Below, piece after piece: positions 2-9,558 of a stretch of DNA of 64,000 nt. Position 1 is the first letter of the stretch, and each line of letters starts with the position of its first letter. Position numbers and translations under genes: made by a program. The notes under the pieces are model-generated. The model searched no databases. It worked only from the letters and a program-made list of their open reading frames with translations, and was not told the DNA's origin. This DNA comes from Bilabrum cf. latius (taxonomy: Eukaryota), in assembly GCA_965178125.1 (NCBI GenBank), contig OZ237746.1, positions 930,001 through 994,000 of the forward strand, in the 5' to 3' direction.

Positions 2-535
2 AGTGATATTCGTGTTCTCCTCCAAACTCCACCAAATATTAAGGGGTTTCTTCCTACGTCGGTAAACATCGTTCCATATACAGAATTAGGATAGTACAAT
101 AGTATTGATGGATTATTTAGTCGTTGTAATTGTTGTATCATTCTATACCAAGAAGAAATAAACTCTGGTCATTGGGTTTGCTTATTTAAGCGTAATAAAA
201 CAATATACTTCTTTGACAGTTACGGAATTCGTCCTGATAGGCAATAGAGTACGATGAGTGACGCCGTCCGGAAACGTTTTTATGAAGACCCTGAACTAAT
301 ACATTTAATGTATCATTCTCCGTATAAGATTGACTATAACCCATATTAGTTTTAGGCGGATGGAATGGATATAGCAACCTGCGGGAGACATTGTATAGTT
401 CGTCTTTGGAATAGGGGAAAAAACGCTGATTAGTATAAAAAGTGGGTGGATAAGGTTTGTAAGAAACATACATTAAATCCTGATGAATTAGTGTATTTAT
501 TGACGTATCATCTTAATGATATTAAGTCCCCATAA
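2..535 (+). CDS. Virophage/Polinton-type maturation cysteine protease (adenain/Ulp1-like, clan CE), 5'-truncated by the window; open only if TAG is read as sense (Gln)
   Basis: Manual translation of frame 2: SDIRVLL...IVPYTELG*YNSIDGLF...CIILYQEEINSGHWVCLFKRNKTIYFFDSYGIRPD...IDYNPY*F*ADGMDIATCGRHCIVRL...NPDELVYLLT...KSP-TAA. Catalytic H (GHW), D (FDSYG) and C (TCGRHC) are present. In-frame TAG at 92, 245, 347, 353 and 431; no frameshift. Confidence 0.88.
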
Positions 536-683
536 AATGCTGATGCTTCTTGCTGTTAATATGGTGTGATTTATTGTATACTTTATATTTCCCACCACAA
601 GGGCAAAGAATTGTTTGCTTTAAAGTATCTTTATTTTTCTTGTAATATTCTTGATTATATTCCTGTGTATTTCTCACGGGCAT
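522..683 (-). CDS. Small basic protein with a C2H2-like Zn finger (CPCGG...H..SKKH), typical of small ORFs in giant viruses, virophages and Polintons
   Basis: MPVRNTQEYNQEYYKKNKDTLKQTILCPCGGKYKVYNKSHHINSKKHQHFMGT-TAA. ATG at 683 (the ORF track extends to 707). It fills the gap between protease and integrase, and its stop overlaps the protease 3' end. Confidence 0.7.
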   Translation of the reverse strand: MPVRNTQEYNQEYYKKNKDTLKQTILCPCGGKYKVYNKSHHINSKKHQHFMGT

Positions 684-715
684 ATCTCTGTTATATACTA
701 AGAACAAAGTACTTA

Positions 716-1639
716 ATGGAAAAGTATTTTGACGAAGTTCATACTCCTAGAAACCCTGAGCGGTCATATAGAAAAGTTTAGGCCTATGGAAATGCGGATA
801 TTTACTCTGCAGATTTAATTGACCTCTCAAGATTTGCTGAGTATAATGATAATTATAAATGGATACTCTCATTAATTGATATTATTTCAAGAAAAGGGAT
901 TGCTATACCACTCAAGAATAAACTAGCGACTACTGTGTTAAAAGGCTACAAATAGATTGTGGAAGGCTTGGGAAAACAACCTAATAAACTGTGGACTGAC
1001 TAGGGAAAAGAGTTCTATAATAAAACGTTTAAGAAATATCTTTCCAAACACAATACTCACCTGTACTCAACTTTTTCCGGAAAAAAGGCGGTTGTTGTGG
1101 AACGCTTCAATAGAACTATTTTAACCAAATTATTTAAGTCGATGGCTAAGAATAAGACACGACGATGGATTGATTTATTAACTGATGTTATTGTTTCCTA
1201 TAATAATACTGAACATAGCACCATTAAGATGACACCTAACGAATTGTGGGAAAAGGAAAAAGATTTCCAACCAAGTATTAAACGTCACTAGAAAAGCCCT
1301 ATTAAATTCAAGAAGGGCGATATCGTACGAGTAATGTACCCTAAGAAAACATTTGATAAAGGGTATTTACCTAATTGGAGTTGGGACGTCTTCAAAATTA
1401 ATAAGGTATTCTTGACAAATCCAACAACCTATACTTTGACGAATGGGGAAAAGAAGAAATTAGAGGGGAAATACTATGATTGGCAATTAAAGAAAACCGT
1501 GTAGCCTTTTGGGGTCTATAACATCGAAAGAGTTGTAGATACTGAAATGAAAGATGGAATTGAGTATAGTTTTGTGAAATGGGTGGGGTATGATGCTTCG
1601 CATAACAGTTGGATACCGACCAATCAACTAATAGATTGA
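716..1639 (+). CDS. Retroviral-like (rve, DDE) integrase with C-terminal chromodomain, Polinton/Mavirus type, 307 aa if TAG=Gln
   Basis: Manual translation from ATG 716 to TGA 1637-1639: ...YSADLIDL...ILSLIDIISRKG..IPLKNK...PNKLWTD*GKEFYNK...KAVVVERFNRTI...YNNTEHSTIKMTP...FKKGDIVRV...FDKGYLPNWS...YNIERVVD...SFVKWVGYDASHNSWIP. The D-D-E triad is intact. In-frame TAG at 779, 953, 1001, 1289 and 1502; no frameshifts and no internal TAA or TGA. Confidence 0.92.
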
Positions 1640-1707
1640 TTTTTATGGTGTCATCATGGGAATTACAACATTAAATTTTAATTGGAAAATTTTATTTATT
1701 CTTTCTA
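1640..1707. repeat. First, interrupted copy of the AT-rich ~166-bp subterminal repeat
   Basis: TTTTTATGGTGTCATCATGGGAATTACAACATTAAATTTTAATTGGAAAATTTTATTTATTCTTTC matches ~8450-8514 and ~8616-8680. In those copies it continues ...AGTCTC, which here resumes at 8185. Confidence 0.85.
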
Positions 1708-1904
1708 ATAATGCTAACGCCGAATGGGGTTCGGGGTTGATGTGGCGATGCGTTCGAGACTCGAACACAGGCTCCGGTCTACCAACGCGAGGTTGCAACC
1801 GCCAGTGCGACCAGCAGCTTGCGAGGCATTCCCTCGTCTCCTTCCTTAGGGAAGGGGGCGGGGCAGCGCGGCAGTGGCCGTTCCGGCTCATGCCGTTGTT
1901 TTGT
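1708..1904 (+). repeat. Split direct repeat A1
   Basis: ATAATGCTAACGCC...CCGTTGTTTTGT, identical by eye to 7823-8019. Confidence 0.95.
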
Positions 1905-2433
1905 TTAGTATTTATGTTCGGTTTGGTGCTCACACGGGTAGTGCTTAACGCCGTGTCAACTATCGCGCGTGTCCATGTGGGTCCGTTCGGCCTACATCGT
2001 GCATCCATCCTCGGCCTACTTGGCGCTCCAGTGGATCCGAACCAATATTTACTTCGATGTGATCCATCTTTCTCGGCACATCGATGGGACTTCGGTCCGT
2101 TGGGCTCGGCTGCTGCTTGCGCCACGGTCTCCCGGGTGTGTGCTCGCCGATGGCATTTTCGCGCGATCTCTGCGTCCCTCCCTTTCGTACTTGTTCCTAC
2201 GCACGGCCATGCATGTAGAAACATATTCAAATGGTTCGATCTTACGGTTTTCCGACGACCCAGCCTTTCCGTTGGCGAGGCGCGCTCCGCTTTTCCGGTC
2301 GCACCTCGAAAGCAACCACTTTCGGCCAGATCAGCCATCGTACCAGGATACAGCACGATTTGCACCTATCGAGTGACTGATCATTTGAATTGTGCAGGGT
2401 GGGCACGTAGTCAGCTTGGACTCCATCGTCCTC

Positions 2434-5400
2434 TGGCTGCCGACGACAGCAGGCTCGGTGAGCCTTCGTCATCGTCCAGACAACCCTGCAGCTCGCACCA
2501 GGCGTGCGTGCAGGAGGTCGAAGCGAGCAGCGCGGTGTGGCGCAGCTCGTAGACGGAGGCCGGCCTGGAGCCTGGTCGGTTGACGCAGCATCAGTGGTGG
2601 GCTGGTGCTGTGTCTTGCGCGGGTGCCGGAGCTTGGCCACGGTGGCCTGCTGCTCCCTGCGCCCCACGCGCAGTTCCTCCCGCTCCGGCGGATGAGTCAG
2701 CAGTGGCACGTTGCCACCGGCTGACGACGACAGCAGGCTCGGTGAGCCTTCGTCATCGTCCAGAAAACCCTGCAGCTCGCACCAGGCGTGCGTGCAGGAG
2801 GTCGAAGCGAGCAGCGCGGTGTGGCGCAGCTCGTAGACGGAGGCCGGCCTGGAGCCTGGTCGGTTGACGCAGCATCAGTGGTGGGCTGGTGCTGTGTCTT
2901 TGCGCGGGTGCCGGAGCTTGGCCACGATGGCCTGCTGCTCCCTGCGCCCCACGCGCAGTTCCTCCCGCTCCGGCGGATGAGTCAGCAGTGGCACGTTGCC
3001 ACCGGCTGACGACGACAGCAGGCTCGGTGAGCCTTCGTCATCGTCCAGAAAACCCTGCAGCTCGCACCAGGCGTGCGTGCAGGAGGTCGAAGCGAGCAGC
3101 GCGGTGTGGCGCAGCTCGTAGACGGAGGCCGGCCTGGAGCCTGGTCGGTTGCCGCAGCATCAGTGGTGGGCTGGTGCTGTGTCTTGCGCGGGTGCCGGAG
3201 CCTGGCCACGATGGCCTGCTGCTCCCTGCGCCCACGCGCAGTTCCTCCCGCTCCGGCGGATGAGTCAGCAGTGGCACGTTGCCACCGGCTGACGACGACA
3301 GCAGGCTCGGTGAGCCTTCGTCATCGTCCAGAAAACCCTGCAGCTCGCACCAGGCGTGCGTGCAGGAGGTCGAAGCGAGCAGCGCGGTGTGGCGCAGCTC
3401 GTAGACGGAGGCCGGCCTGGAGCCTGGTCGGTTGACGCAGCATCAGTGGTGGGCTGGTGCTGTGTCTTGCGCGGGTGCCGGAGCTTGGCCACGATGGCCT
3501 GCTGCTCCCTGTGCCCCACGCGCAGTTCCTCCCGCTCCGGCGGATGAGTCAGCAGTGGCGCGTTGCCACCGGCTGACGACGACAGCAGGCTCGGTGAGCC
3601 TTCGTCATCGTCCAGAAAACCCTGCAGCTCGCACCAGGCGTGCGTGCAGGAGGTCGAAGCGAGCAGCGCGGTGTGGCGCAGCTCGTAGACGGAGGCCGGC
3701 CTGGAGCCTGGTCGGTTGCCGCAGCATCAGTGGTGGGCTGGTGCTGTGTCTTGCGCGGGTGCCGGAGCTGGGCCACGATGGCCTGCTGCTCCCTGCGCCC
3801 CACGCGCAGTTCCTCCCGCTCCGGCGGATGAGTCAGCAGTGGCACGTTGCCACCGGCTGACGACGACAGCAGGCTCGATGAGCCTTCGTCATCGTCCAGA
3901 AAACCCTGCAGCTCGCACCAGGCGTGCGTGCAGGAGGTCGAAGCGAGCAGCGCGGTGTGGCGCAGCTCGTAGACGGAGGCCGGCCTGGAGCCTGGTCGGT
4001 TGACGCAGCATCAGTGGTGGGCTGGTGCTGTGCCTTGCGCGGGTGCCGGAGCCTCGCCACGATGGCCTGCTGCTCCCTGCGCCCCACGCGCAGTTCCTCC
4101 CGCTCCGGCGGATGAGTCAGCAGTGGCACGTTGCCACCGGCTGACGACGACAGCAGGCTCGATGAGCCTTCGTCATCGTCCAGAAAACCCTGCAGCTCGC
4201 ACCAGGCGTGCGTGCAGGAGGTCGAAGCGAGCAGCGCGGTGTGGCGCAGCTCGTAGACGGAGGCCGGCCTGGAGCCTGGTCGGTTGACGCAGCATCAGTG
4301 GTGGGCTGGTGTTGTGTCTTGCGTGGGTGCCGGAGCCTGGCCACGGTGGCCTGCTGCTCCCTGCGCCCCACGCGCAGTTCCTCCCGCTCCGGCGGATGAG
4401 TCAGCAGTGGCACGTTGCCACCGGCTGACGACGACAGCAGGCTCGGTGAGCCTTCGTCATCGTCCAGAAAACCCTGCAGCTCGCACCAGGCGTGCGTGCA
4501 GGAGGTCGAAGCGAGCAGCGCGGTGTGGCGCAGCTCGTAGACGGAGGCCGGCCTGGAGCCTGGTCGGTTGACGCAGCATCAGTGGTGGGCTGGTGCTGTG
4601 TCTTTGCGCGGGTGCCGGAGCTTGGCCACGATGGCCTGCTGCTCCCTGCGCCCCACGCGCAGTTCCTCCCGCTCCGGCGGATGAGTCAGCAGTGGCACGT
4701 TGCCACCGGCTGACGACGACAGCAGGCTCGGTGAGCCTTCGTCATCGTCCAGAAAACCCTGCAGCTCGCACCAGGCGTGCGTGCAGGAGGTCGAAGCGAG
4801 CAGCGCGGTGTGGCGCAGCTCGTAGACGGAGGCCGGCCTGGAGCCTGGTCGGTTGACGCAGCATCAGTGGTGGGCTGGTGCTGTGTCTTGCGCGGGTGCC
4901 GGAGCCTGGCCACGATGGCCTGCTGCTCCCTGCGCCCCACGCGCAGTTCCTCCCGCTCCGGCGGATGAGTCAGCAGTGGCACGTTGCCACCGGCTGACGA
5001 CGACAGCAGGCTCGGTGAGCCTTCGTCATCGTCCAGAAAACCCTGCAGCTCGCACCAGGCGTGCGTGCAGGAGGTTGAAGCGAGCAGCGCGGTGTGGCGC
5101 AGCTCGTAGACGGAGGCCGGCCTGGAGCCTGGTCGGTTGCCGCAGCATCAGTGGTGGGCTGGTGCTGCGTCTTTGCGCGGGTGCCGGAGCTTGGCCACGA
5201 TGGCCTGCTGCTCCCTGCGCCCCACGCGCAGTTCCTCCCGCTCCGGCGGATGAGTCAGCAGTGGCACGTTGCCACCGACTGACGACGACAGCAGGCTCGG
5301 TGAGCCTTCGTCATCGTCCAGAAAACCCTGCAGCTCGCACCAGGCGTGCGTGCAGGAGGTCGAAGCGAGCAGCGCGGTGTGGCGCAGCTCGTAGACGGAG

Positions 5401-7261
5401 GCCGGCCTGGAGCCTGGTCGGTTGACGCAGCATCAGTGGTGGGCTGGTGCTGTGTCTTGCGCGGGTGCCGGAGCCTGGCCACGGTGGCCTGCTGCTCCCT
5501 GCGCCCCACGCGCAGTTCTCCCGCTCCGGCGGATGAGTCAGCAGTGGCACGTTGCCACCGGCTGACGACGACAGCAGGCTCGGTGAGCCTTCGTCATCGT
5601 CCAGAAAACCCTGCAGCTCGCACCAGGCGTGCGTGCAGGAGGTCGAAGCGAGCAGCGCGGTGTGGCGCAGCTCGTAGACGGAGGCCGGCCTGGAGCCTGG
5701 TCGGTTGACGCAGCATCAGTGGTGGGCTGGTGCTGTGTCTTTGCGCGGGTGCCGGAGCTTGGCCACGATGGCCTGCTGCTGCCTGCGCCCCACGCGCAGT
5801 TCTCCCGCTCCGGCGAATGAGTCAGCAGTGGCACGTTGCCACCGACTGACGACGACAGCAGGCTCGGTGAGCCTTCGTCATCGTCCAGAAAACCCTGCAG
5901 CTCGCACCAGGCGTGCGTGCAGGAGGTCGAAGCGAGCAGCGCGGTGTGGCGCAGCTCGTAGACGGAGGCCGGCCTGGAGCCTGGTCGGTTGCCGCAGCAT
6001 CAGTGGTGGGCTGGTGCTGTGTCTTGCGCGGGTGCCGGAGCCTGGCCACGATGGCCTGCTGCTCCCTGCGCCCCACGCGCAGTTCTCCCGCTCCGGCGGA
6101 TGAGTCAGCAGGGGCACGTTGCCACCGACTGACGACGACAGCAGGCTCGGTGAGCCTTCGTCATCGTCCAGAAAACCCTGCAGCTCGCACCAGGCGTGCG
6201 TGCAGGAGGTCGAAGCGAGCAGCGCGGTGTGGCGCAGCTCGTAGACGGAGGCCGGCCTGGAGCCTGGTCGGTTGACGCAGCATCAGTGGTGGGCTGGTGC
6301 TGTGTCTTTGCGCGGGTGCCGGAGCTTGGCCACGATGGCCTGCTGCTCCCTGCGCCCCACGCGCAGTTCCTCCCGCTCCGGCGGATGAGTCAGCAGTGGC
6401 ACGTTGCCACCGGCTGACGACGACAGCAGGCTCGGTGAGCCTTCGTCATCGTCCAGAAAACCCTGCAGCTCGCACCAGGCGTGCGTGCAGGAGGTTGAAG
6501 CGAGCAGCGCGGTGTGGCGCAGCTCGTAGACGGAGGCCGGCCTGGAGCCTGGTCGGTTGACGCAGCATCAGTGGTGGGCTGGTGCTGTGTCTTTGCGCGG
6601 GTGCCGGAGCTTGGCCACGATGGCCTGCTGCTCCCTGCGCCCCACGCGCAGTTCCTCCCGCTCCGGCGGATGAGTCAGCAGTGGCACGTTGCCACCGGCT
6701 GACGACGACAGCAGGCTCGGTGAGCCTTCGTCATCGTCCAGAAAACCCTGCAGCTCGCACCAGGCGTGCGTGCAGGAGGTCGAAGCGAGCAGCGCGGTGT
6801 GGCGCAGCTCGTAGACGGAGGCCGGCCTGGAGCCTGGTCGGTTGCCGCAGCATCAGTGGTGGGCTGGTGCTGTGTCTTGCGCGGGTGCCGGAGCTTGGCC
6901 ACGGTGGCCTGCTGCTCCCTGCGCCCCACGCGCAGTTCCTCCCGCTCCGGCGGATGAGTCAGCAGTGGCACGTTGCCACCGGCTGACGACGACAGCAGGC
7001 TCGGTGAGCCTTCGTCATCGTCCAGAAAACCCTGCAGCTCGCACCAGGCGTGCATGCAGGAGGTCGAAGCGAGCAGCGCGGTGTGGCGCAGCTCGTAGAC
7101 GGAGGCCGGCCTGGAGCCTGGTCGGTTGACGCAGCATCAGTGGTGGGCTGGTGCTGTGTCTTTGCGCGGGTGCCGGAGCCTGGCCACGATGGCCTGCTGC
7201 TCCCTGCGCCCACGCGCAGTTCTCCCGCTCCGGCGGATGAGTCAGCAGTGGCACGTTGCCA
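2434..7261 (+). repeat. GC-rich tandem array, 17 copies of a 283-285 bp unit
   Basis: The same motif recurs at 2504, 2788, 3073, 3356, 3640, 3924, 4208, 4492, 4777, 5061, 5346, 5629, 5913, 6196, 6481, 6766 and 7050. Copies differ by a few substitutions and 1-nt indels. Confidence 0.97.
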
Positions 7262-7677
7262 TTGACTGACGCCCCCTCGTCAGGCTTGCTCCCTACATCC
7301 AGTAGTTTGGAGCACCCTGATTTCCCGCTTTGCGGATGAGTCACTGCGGGTATATTCTCCGGCAGCTGACGATCTCTTGGGCCACATGGTTCCTCGCCCA
7401 GGAACAGGCATGTAGACACAGTGGTAGCCACTCCACTGGCCTACTTGCAGGTTCCCAATCGACTGGTTCTTCCACGGATGTCGCCGTACGTACCTCCTTT
7501 GGCACAACCCGACTGCATAGTCGATGAGTTGTGTCAACGGACTCAACGCCGGCGCGGTTTCGTCCCTGACCTACGGTCGTCGACTCGACTACCGCTATCA
7601 TCGACTGTTTCCACACGTCCTACAGATGGTCCCGACAACCAGTCAACTTCAATGATCAAGGCATGGCGATGTAAGAC

Positions 7678-8184
7678 TTGGCTGATAGTGGAGCGGACGC
7701 GCAACCGACGGTTCTGGTGCTTTCCAACCGACGTCGGCGCGCGGTCTGCTCAGATTGGCCATGCTTTGCCCATGTCTTGATTGAACTGGAGACGAAGTGT
7801 GTCGAGTAAGCATCGTTGCATCATAATGCTAACGCCGAATGGGGTTCGGGGTTGATGTGGCGATGCGTTCGAGACTCGAACACAGGCTCCGGTCTACCAA
7901 CGCGAGGTTGCAACCGCCAGTGCGACCAGCAGCTTGCGAGGCATTCCCTCGTCTCCTTCCTTAGGGAAGGGGGCGGGGCAGCGCGGCAGTGGCCGTTCCG
8001 GCTCATGCCGTTGTTTTGTCCCACCCTCCTCTCCCTGGTTTGGCTGATAGTGGAGCGGACGCGCAACCGACGGTTCTGGTGCTTTCCAACCGACGTCGGC
8101 GCGCGGTCTGCTCAGATTGGCCATGCTTTGCCCATGTCTTGATTGAACTGGAGACGAAGTGTGTCGAGTAAGCATCGTTGCATC
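7678..8184 (+). repeat. Split direct repeats B1 (7678-7822), A2 (7823-8019) and B2 (8040-8184)
   Basis: TTGGCTGATAGTGG...CATCGTTGCATC occurs twice, 362 bp apart, flanking the second copy of A. Confidence 0.95.
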
Positions 8185-8720
8185 AGTCTCTTATAATTGA
8201 CCTGTCAAATCTCTCAATTTTTGGGGGACTTTTCCAAAGGAACTTAAAATACAATTACTAATTGATTTTTCATTTCCTTTTTTAATTTTTATGGTATCAT
8301 CATTGGAATTACAACATTTAATTTTAATTGGGAACTTAATTTTAATATTTCTTTGTATCCTATATTGTCCAAAATTTTCAATCAATTTTTGTGTTTTTAA
8401 TTGGGGAGTTAGAAAACAATTATAATTTGTTTTTTTATTTTCCTTTTAATTTTTATGGTGTTATCATAGGAGTTACAACATATATTTTAATTGGAAAATT
8501 TTATTTATTCTTTCATAGTCTCTTATAATTGACCTGTCAAATCTCTCAATTTTTGGGGGACTTTTCCAAAGGGACTTAAAATACAATTACTAATTAATTT
8601 TTATTTTCCTTTTAATTTTTATGGTATCATCATAGGAATTACAACATATATTTTTAATAGGAAAATTTATTTATTCTTTCATAGTCTCCTTTATTCGACC
8701 GACCAAATCTCTCAATTTTA
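8185..8720. repeat. AT-rich degenerate tandem repeat (~166 bp, about 3 copies), probably part of the viral element's terminal repeat region
   Basis: AGTCTCTTATAATTGACCTGTCAAATCTCTCAATTTT at 8185 and 8517, a variant at 8682, and a more degenerate intervening copy. Confidence 0.85.
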
Positions 8721-9302
8721 ATCTTTGAAAAAGATATCAAAAGAGCGGAGGGCAAAGCCCGAGCATCTTGGGGACTTTTCCAATCCACCGAGAAAACGAA
8801 TACACACCCTTGTTAATCCTTAAAAATTGATTGGAAAATATCAGGAAGGCCTTGTAAGCCCTACTAAGGATTTCCAGCGGATTTGCCCTTATCTGGGAAA
8901 AGTAGGGGAAATCGTTGGAAAAGTTTGGAAAACCCCCTGTTTATCCAACTAAGGGTTTTGCGATACAACGCCGATGACCATGGATTTTGAGGAATTTTTG
9001 GAGTGGATTTGAGCCGTTCAGCCCTACCCCTTTTTCGGGTTCGTGGGAAATCGTCCAGTAAAACCCTTTAAAAGCGTGAACCTGCTACCTCAAAACTCAT
9101 ATGCTGGGAGAAAGTGTGAAAAAGTTAGATATATTCATGAAAATGACATTCTATGAAAAATTGAACGGAGAAGTCCAGTATTTGTAGGGGGCATCGGGAA
9201 TTCTTGGGAATTCTTAAAAATTGATTTGAAAATTTTAGATATATTCACGGAAAACCAAAACCTAAAGAAATATTGAAGAAATGTCCAGTATTAGCTGGGG
9301 GA

Positions 9303-9362
9303 AAAGTGATATTGTGTAGCTCAATCTTTGATTGAGGTACACAATTCACTTTATATACTACT
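9303..9362. other. Subterminal hairpin and putative right terminus (...ATACTACT) of the Polinton/virophage-like element
   Basis: AAAGTGA-T-ATTGTGTA-G-CTCAATC-ttt-GATTGAG-G-TACACAAT-TCACTTT inverted repeat at 9303-9352, then ATATACTACT, then GC-rich sequence. Confidence 0.7.
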
Positions 9363-9558
9363 GGGGTATTCTGCGACGCAAGGGCTGTAGAGGCTCCCTG
9401 CCAGGTGCAGGCAGGGCAACAACTGAGCGATCCTCACCCGCTTCTGCGTTGTACACGTTTCAGGCCTTTGGTCGGGGTACACAGCCACCGTGCGGTGGCC
9501 GTCACATTGTTTGCTGAAGCTGCTGCCTTGGCCTGCAGCCGCAATAGCCACACGCTAG

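What the first reader, a model, noticed from the sequence alone, without database searches (positions are those of the whole stretch)
1708..8184. Gene-less Ngaro/PAT-like split-direct-repeat element nested inside the virus
Seen: A1(197 bp)...B1(145 bp)-A2-20 bp-B2, with repeat pairs identical by eye, implying recent insertion. The B1/A2 junction GCATC-A-TAATG reproduces the joined element ends. The left junction is TTCTA-A-TAATG and the right is GCATC-A-GTCTC, i.e. a single shared A and no TSD. Established: this layout and TSD-less integration of a circular intermediate define Ngaro/PAT tyrosine-recombinase retrotransposons, and GC-rich Ngaro elements are known to nest in endogenous virophages of Cafeteria. 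Inference: a non-autonomous derivative mobilised in trans, hitch-hiking in the non-coding terminal repeats so that the viral genes stay intact (it lies 68 bp after the integrase stop). This gives a three-tier host, virus, retroelement system.
Basis: partly seen in the sequence, partly recalled or inferred. Interest (0 to 1): 0.8.

Follow-up and report, generated by a model that had tools for sequence, protein, structure and literature searches.

The report
Gene-less Ngaro-type retroelement targeting virophages
A 6.5-kb jumping element with no genes of its own has copied itself several times, almost always into virus DNA stored in a protist's chromosomes, probably with enzymes borrowed from a related complete retrotransposon; it extends a known kind of nesting and gives clues to how such elements replicate.

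Summary
The structure is real. The true ends are 1709-8185 (TAATG...GCATCA): the 'shared A' belongs to the element, and insertion neither duplicates nor deletes target bases (6 of 6 two-ended sites with an empty allele). Five complete copies (two identical 6,477-bp, three 4,488-bp) sit at unrelated sites, so the gene-less unit itself moves. Of 16 young copies or fragments, 15 lie in AT-rich, mostly viral DNA, against 2 of 60 random windows. No autonomous element with these ends is in the assembly. A sister RT-RNase H + YR family has related ends, the same junction core and hairpins, and the same targets; it is the likely but unproven helper. 'Hitch-hiking while sparing viral genes' is not supported: 5 of 10 scorable sites are in ORFs, no site is shared between virus copies, and this virophage's capsid gene is broken by another insert. 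Nesting (Cafeteria) and gene-less DIRS-order elements (TOC1) are known. New leads: targeting without a cis ORF1, and deletions that start at the 3' edge of repeat A.

The parts
1709..8185 (+). Whole non-autonomous split-direct-repeat element, 6,477 bp, ends TAATG...GCATCA
1709..1904 (+). Repeat A1 (196 nt); ends in a T-rich run
1905..2434 (+). 5' interior, non-coding as far as tested: no Pfam hit, no protein homologue, no codon-position bias against an 82%-identical relic
2435..7261 (+). Tandem array, 17 x 283-285 bp, found only in this element family; the unit folds strongly (z -5.1)
7262..7677 (+). 3' interior; its last ~20 nt are conserved with the autonomous sister families and pair with B
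7678..7823 (+). Repeat B1 (146 nt)
7654..7782 (+). Predicted long hairpin, end of interior plus B (z -5.9); also predicted in the sister families
7810..7866 (+). B1|A2 junction (7823|7824), the exact head-to-tail join of the element's ends, closed by a stem (7810-7823 with 7853-7866) around a conserved 29-nt loop
7824..8019 (+). Repeat A2, identical to A1
8020..8039 (+). 20-nt pyrimidine-rich spacer; its first 10 nt are shared by three families; predicted to pair with a G-rich part of A2
8040..8185 (+). Repeat B2, identical to B1
716..1639 (+). Virophage rve integrase with chromodomain, read with TAG=Gln (5 TAG codons)
2..535 (+). Virophage putative cysteine protease ORF (label by gene order and recalled motifs; no Pfam hit)
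1569..9362 (.). Right terminal inverted repeat of the endogenous virophage (~1.3 kb without the element), interrupted 140 bp from its inner edge; a 6-bp target duplication follows at 9363-9368

Best explanation
A non-autonomous retroelement of the split-direct-repeat (Ngaro-type) tyrosine-recombinase class. Shown: it has no gene, it has been copied whole to new sites, it inserts by clean end-joining without target duplication or homology, and it lands almost only in AT-rich endogenous virus DNA, in TIRs, intergenic DNA and ORFs alike. Inferred: its RNA is picked up in trans through conserved terminal sequence and hairpins by the Gag/RT-RNase H/YR proteins of a related autonomous family, most likely the active sister family in this genome. 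It is reverse-transcribed, joined end to end as at B1|A2, and integrated by YR at CATCA|T. The virus preference comes with the helper machinery (trans-acting Gag, or YR preferring AT-rich DNA). The element is a parasite of integrated viruses rather than a benign passenger.
For: The C12 and C30 copies are identical over 6,477 nt, including the order of array variants. The C4, C25 and C2 copies are a 10-unit derivative (1 difference C4 vs C25; 0 over 4,446 nt C2 vs C4). 0 bp gained or lost at 6 of 6 two-ended sites with an empty allele. No Pfam hit at E<0.1 in 9 of 9 frames tested; phmmer over 1.84 billion proteins gave 1 hit, a 95%-identical self-like ORF; tblastn with the sister family's proteins gave only low-complexity matches. 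Flank GC <=42% at 15 of 16 young sites vs 2 of 60 random 600-bp windows, Fisher p=7e-13. The sister family has the same layout (A176, B130), an intact 1,928-aa ORF in 6 fetched copies with RT (VDD) and RNase H motifs, and a YR with R-K-HxxR-W-Y; it gives 16 near-full RT-RH and 19 full YR matches at 94-99% identity. It ends in CATCA at 20 of 20 right ends and has AT-rich flanks at 19 of 22 left and 18 of 20 right junctions. Shared stems show 16 of 79 pairs with two-sided change across 3 families. One old relic joins this element's A to the sister's A-spacer-B.
Against: No autonomous element has these ends: the B-specific 23-mer with up to 2 mismatches gives 14 hits, all in known gene-less copies. 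Ends of element and sister are only moderately alike (A 120 and B 91 matches, vs 111 and 81 for a more distant family and 91-101 and 66-75 for shuffles), less than is usual for helper pairs (recalled). No RNA, cDNA or circle was observed. The covariation rests on 3 sequences and on a structure derived from them. Viral identity of the flanks is shown by protein or TIR matches for 12 of 16 sites and only inferred for 3. Seven older relics (69-97% identity) lie in GC-rich host DNA.
Confidence: 0.75

Rival explanations
1. Same kind of element, but the helper is a closer autonomous parent that is lost, unassembled or on another haplotype, not the sister family seen here.
For: No RT/YR element with these A/B ends in the assembly; modest end identity to the sister; old diverged relics show the lineage has its own history.
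Against: Copies differ by 0-1 nt, so a helper acted recently. The sister is abundant and intact and shares junction core, stems and target type.
Confidence: 0.3
2. The apparent virus targeting is survival bias: insertions fall anywhere and are purged from gene-dense host DNA but tolerated in silent viral DNA.
For: Viral islands are probably silent (inference). PMC8547959 raises purifying selection for the intergenic bias within virophages.
Against: Another autonomous SDR family of this genome has GC-rich flanks at 6 of 6 flanks measured (4 loci; two further loci have AT-rich DNA on one side). Old relics of this family persist in host DNA. So host DNA tolerates such insertions.
Confidence: 0.15
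3. One reading: the element picks terminal repeats to spare viral genes and spreads with the virus.
For: This copy and 2 others lie in the TIR of the same virophage family; 5 of 10 scorable sites are non-coding. A non-coding bias is reported in Cafeteria (PMC8547959).
Against: 5 of 10 sites are in ORFs, one splitting the protease gene. No TIR excess (p=0.40). No filled site recurs in a second virus copy among the fetched loci, and the partner TIR is empty. This virus carries two more inserts, one in its capsid gene. Reactivated Cafeteria virophages lacked full Ngaros (PMC10945749).
Confidence: 0.1
4. A DNA-only element moved by YR excision and reintegration (Crypton-like), with no RNA step.
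For: Clean ends fit any YR reaction; no RNA evidence was obtained.
Against: The ends are homologous to those of RT-encoding families. Split repeats are a retro-type feature (PMC9210276). Deletions pile up at the A edge, as expected from reverse transcription.
Confidence: 0.07

Closest known systems
Ngaro retrotransposons nested in endogenous mavirus-like virophages of Cafeteria burkhardae (PMC8547959; section 11 read whole, other passages seen)
   Same: A1-[interior]-B1A2B2 layout; GC-rich ~6 kb inserts in AT-rich virophages; family-specific virus preference; solo AB repeats; sites in intergenic DNA, genes and TIRs (9/7/4 there, 2/5/3 here).
   Different: There the elements encode RT and YR, and variants lacking ORF1 sit in host DNA, which led to the proposal that ORF1 sets the target. 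Here an element with no ORF at all has moved repeatedly and keeps the virus preference. The host reads TAG as Gln.
TOC1 of Chlamydomonas reinhardtii (called a non-autonomous DIRS retrotransposon in PMC9940879, passages seen; >5.6 kb in PMC3623635, passages seen)
   Same: Gene-less, several-kb, mobile member of the YR-retrotransposon order. Split terminal repeats, an internal tandem array, no target duplication and TOC3 as its partner are recalled, not seen in a call.
   Different: TOC1's relatives are PAT-like with a methyltransferase (recalled; MT in Chlamydomonas DIRS-derived INT1 seen in PMC9940879). The candidate helper here shows no MT. TOC1 is not known to me to target viruses.
SIRE of Trypanosoma cruzi (VIPER A2-B2 fragment; PMC6681497, passages seen)
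   Same: Non-coding derivative of a split-direct-repeat YR retrotransposon.
   Different: SIRE is only the A2-B2 part, matching the solo A-spacer-B copies here; its independent mobility is left open in that paper.
DIRS-1 of Dictyostelium (PMC7192593, passages seen)
   Same: An internal copy of the joined ends; YR integration; mostly linear single-stranded cDNA reported.
   Different: Inverted termini with an ICR, and a trinucleotide shared with the target. Here the repeats are direct and no target homology is needed at 6 of 6 sites.

Membership tests
Ngaro (DIRS order) | Split direct repeats A1...B1A2B2, pairs identical | tested here: met
   definition in PMC9210276
Ngaro (DIRS order) | B1/A2 junction equals the joined element ends; no target-site duplication | tested here: met
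   0 bp change at 6 of 6 two-ended sites with an empty allele
Ngaro (DIRS order), autonomous | Encodes Gag-like, RT/RNase H and YR | tested here: not met
   No such ORF in the element; it can only be a non-autonomous member. RT/RH motifs and YR are present in the sister family (YR Pfam E 3e-4 is below the curated cut-off; Gag not identified).
Ngaro versus PAT-like | No methyltransferase domain after RT/RH in the autonomous relative | tested here: met
   Pfam scan of the sister's 1,928-aa ORF shows no MT at E<=0.1; a negative from one library
Ngaro versus PAT-like/VIPER | RT groups with Ngaro in a phylogeny | not tested
   No named reference RTs were obtained; homologue searches returned 2 and 3 unnamed proteins
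DIRS order | Replicates via RNA and a circular or end-joined cDNA | not testable with these tools
   Only assembled contigs were available, and none of the runs is on record as RNA
Non-autonomous element with a helper (TOC1-like) | The gene-less unit itself is found at several independent sites | tested here: met
   5 complete copies, two size classes, different flanks
Non-autonomous element with a helper (TOC1-like) | An autonomous partner with matching ends | tested here: inconclusive
   Related but not matching ends in the sister family; no exact partner
Endogenous virophage (host of the insertion) | Virophage major and minor capsid, ATPase, pPolB, integrase, TIRs, TSD | tested here: met
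   PF21915/PF22031, PF21507, PF03175, PF00665+PF00385, weak ATPase hits; TIRs and 6-bp duplication

The most novel reading that the evidence does not exclude
A fully gene-less satellite of a virus-targeting Ngaro, showing that targeting to endogenous viruses is supplied in trans. Its decay products and those of its relatives also reveal the replication route of split-direct-repeat elements: the 3' edge of repeat A is a molecular end, either the start of first-strand cDNA or the 3' end of a short A RNA onto which RT jumps, and a conserved B-end/A-start stem brings the two ends together for strand transfer and YR cleavage.
Probability: 0.35. Interest if true: 0.75.

Novelty: new variant of a known kind. 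Interest (0 to 1): 0.55.

Why it matters
It shows Ngaro-type parasitism of endogenous virophages in a second host with a different genetic code, and adds a gene-less tier that depends on another element. It bears on the open question of what directs these elements into viral DNA: the Cafeteria proposal ties this to ORF1 in the same element, while this element targets viruses with no ORF. The replication of split-repeat elements has little experimental support. The pile-up of deletion breakpoints at the A edge and the conserved terminal stems give concrete predictions for cDNA ends and define a minimal cis-acting unit to test.

Tried and rejected
Shared-A crossover: rejected. Hidden gene or coding remnant in the interior: none found; array units of 283-285 nt cannot hold one frame. 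Ribozyme or known RNA family: Rfam best E 0.9 and 1.4. Autonomous element with identical ends: none. Permuted integration through B1|A2: the junction 16-mer occurs 6 times, in the five full copies and at C31, so none seen. Junction pattern in viral contigs: 0 hits. YR relatives in metagenome contigs: 1 short locus of 157 candidate stretches, without ends. Expression: no RNA holder listed; contigs cannot show circles or RNA ends. The B-end/A-start stem is not general: a third autonomous family lacks it (z about 0). The first C2-vs-C4 comparison was off by one base and was redone. Earlier findings of the scan: none. Host lineage and RT phylogeny were not determined. Supplements of PMC8547959 were not read and may list gene-less Ngaro derivatives.
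Full report
Observation. The repeats are exact: 1708-1904 = 7823-8019 and 7678-7823 = 8040-8185, with a 20-nt spacer. Between them lie 530 nt of unique DNA, a 17 x 284-bp array at 2435-7261 and 416 nt of unique DNA. The window is C12:930,001-994,000 of a 48.6-Mb, 111-contig eukaryotic assembly. TAG is read as Gln, as the 5 TAG codons inside the rve-chromodomain integrase show.

True ends. The search with the 5' part gave 31 matches, among them 16 sites with an A identical to this one. The base before TAATG is A at 4 of 15 readable sites, while the base after GCATC is A at 9 of 9 right ends listed. Ten copies keep both ends. For 6 of them an empty allele was found among the fetched loci, and all 6 show no base gained or lost when the element is taken as TAATG...GCATCA. 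For this copy the empty allele is the virus's own left TIR, 100% identical on both sides. So the element is 1709-8185, the shared A is a coincidence, and no target homology is needed. B1|A2 is the exact join of the two ends.

It is gene-less and moves as such. Nine frames gave no Pfam hit under E 0.1. The longest 5' frame found 1 protein among 1.84 billion, a 95%-identical self-like ORF. Against an 82%-identical relic, substitutions fall 20/29/29 over codon positions, with many 1-nt gaps; the relic may itself be decayed. The C12 and C30 copies are identical over 6,477 nt, including the order of array variants. The C4, C25 and C2 copies carry 10 units with a hybrid unit at the join, and differ by 1 nt (C4 vs C25) and 0 nt over 4,446 (C2 vs C4; the left end of the C2 copy could not be read). 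These are copies of a gene-less unit, not separate decay products. Contigs from 4 of 4 runs laid (of 21 listed; 4 studies, perhaps the same strain) carry the interior-B and B-A adjacencies, though only 24-30 nt into A. Spacer-B and A-interior joins are listed for 2 of 4.

The virus. The element sits in the right TIR (1569-9362) of a virophage at C12:907,311-939,362 with virophage major and minor capsid proteins, pPolB, GIY-YIG, ATPase and integrase, and a 6-bp target duplication. The virus is not intact: a 3.9-kb tandem GC-rich insert interrupts the capsid gene, and an RT-encoding element sits in the left TIR.

Targets. All measured flanks are <=42% GC at 15 of 16 young sites (three of them measured on one side only), against 2 of 60 random 600-bp windows drawn from 28 contigs (33 of 48.6 Mb); p=7e-13, or 2e-11 if the C2 copy is counted as a miss. 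Viral proteins or TIR DNA confirm 12 of 16 sites; 3 rest on GC content and on matching flanks in other AT-rich islands; 1 (C31) is in GC-rich DNA. Of 10 scorable sites, 5 fall in ORFs (one splits the protease gene), 3 in TIRs and 2 between genes; 5 AT-rich sites could not be scored. 3 of 15 in TIRs is no excess over ~15% (p=0.40). No filled site recurs in a second virus copy among the fetched loci. Seven older relics (69-97% identity) lie in GC-rich DNA. So virus targeting is strong, but sparing of genes and hitch-hiking are not supported.

Helper. No RT/YR element carries these ends. A 21-mer from A gave 107 matches, most from a sister family. In the 20 stretches fetched for it, this family has the same layout, a 1,928-aa ORF open in 6 copies with RT and RNase H motifs, and an overlapping 445-aa YR with the catalytic residues. 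Genome-wide it gives 16 near-full RT-RH and 19 full YR matches at 94-99% identity. It ends in CATCA, starts TGAT, and has AT-rich flanks at 19 of 22 left and 18 of 20 right junctions. A third autonomous family has GC-rich flanks at 6 of 6 measured (4 loci; two other loci are AT-rich on one side), so the preference is family-specific, as in Cafeteria. Against the sister as helper: the end similarity is modest. No methyltransferase was detected, which favours Ngaro over PAT-like; no tree was built.

Cis signals. The 3' 546 nt fold far better than shuffles (z -7.1). Two stems recur in this element and two sister families: a B hairpin that includes the last ~20 nt of the interior (z -3.9 to -5.9), and a stem pairing the end of B with the start of A around the junction (z -3.0 to -4.8). 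16 of 79 pairs change on both sides, against 0 of 500 shuffles reaching that number and 0-5 for slid controls. This rests on 3 sequences and a structure derived from them. The third family lacks the junction stem. No Rfam family matches.

A clue to replication. In the sister family, all 10 internal deletions resolved begin at positions 173-176 of the 176-nt A and resume at scattered points (413 to 6,275). In the third family 3 of 5 begin at the A edge, 1 begins 17 nt beyond it and 1 inside A. In this family 1 of 3 begins at the edge and 1 is 14 nt beyond it (only the first 900 nt of each copy were examined, and the loci were picked partly for short A1-A2 spacing). Six young copies keep a precise left end and lack the right end; 3 of the 6 stop at the A edge, and the 4 with an empty allele show 11, 7 and 5 target bases lost or a 2-base irregularity. 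A1-A2 recombination explains solo A-spacer-B copies but not these. My inference: the A edge is a molecular end in reverse transcription. Either first-strand cDNA starts there, jumps from the A start to the B end and is closed early, or RT jumps onto a short A RNA ending at the T-run. YR then cuts at B|A. Microhomology at the T-rich edge is a rival and is present at one of the A-only sites.

Known and new. Nesting of Ngaro in virophages, solo AB repeats, and insertions in TIRs and genes are described for Cafeteria (PMC8547959; section 11 whole and passages). Reactivated virophages lacked full Ngaros (PMC10945749, passages). Nested retroelements occur in cryptophyte PLVs (PMC12220804, passages), and Halocafeteria lacks Ngaro (10.64898/2026.07.28.741278, passages). 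A gene-less DIRS-order element, TOC1, is long known (PMC9940879, PMC3623635, 10.1101/2022.08.29.505686, 10.1101/2022.05.23.493040; passages); its split repeats and internal array are recalled. Definitions come from PMC9210276, PMC6681497 and PMC7192593 (passages); PMC12477816 (passages) added nothing. Eight library searches showed no report of a wholly gene-less, virus-targeting Ngaro-type family, of these stems, or of the A-edge rule. The library lacks most subscription papers, including the original Ngaro and TOC1 descriptions, and supplements were not read.

Verdict. A real, recently mobile, non-autonomous Ngaro-type element parasitising endogenous viruses: a new variant of a known kind. 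Interest 0.55, carried by the targeting without a cis ORF and the testable replication clue.

Noticed in passing
L051:9800 to L032:3730 (C12 ~919.8-923.7 kb): Three tandem ~1.31-kb GC-rich units interrupt the virophage capsid gene. The same unit forms tandem runs elsewhere (7 on C14, 2 on C35; 22 matches). Element type not identified.
   Followed up: partly
L068:7987 to L051:1684 (C12 ~908.0-911.7 kb): An RT-encoding, LINE-like element with a ~10-bp target duplication sits in the left TIR of the same virophage, so one virus carries three unrelated inserts.
   Followed up: partly
L087:935-9400 (C27): A second gene-less split-repeat derivative, of another family, filled with an 87-88-bp tandem array and keeping a YR C-terminal remnant. 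Array filling has happened more than once.
   Followed up: partly
L024:4885-5252 (C31): The only young copy in GC-rich DNA is a solo A-spacer-B inserted at a target reading GCATCA|T, the element's own junction core. It may be a homology-guided event.
   Followed up: partly
L029:4689-5165 (C18): Chimeric relic: this element's A (97%), a 21-nt filler, then part of the sister family's A, spacer and B with a precise right end.
   Followed up: partly
L026:9412-10000 (C38): A minimal sister-family derivative, A1-B1-A2-B2 with only ~13 nt of interior, those that pair with B.
   Followed up: partly
window 11437-64000: rDNA array with a 9,545-bp unit that includes 5S as well as 18S, 5.8S and 28S; one unit is 1,710 bp longer. 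The virophage is integrated just beside it.
   Followed up: no
genome-wide: At least five further RT + YR retroelement families in this genome, some mostly in host DNA, some beside viral islands.
   Followed up: partly
window 560-1639 and viral ORFs in L032, L051: The integrated viruses and the retroelements use TAG as Gln throughout (26 TAG in pPolB), so they are adapted to the host's code.
   Followed up: no
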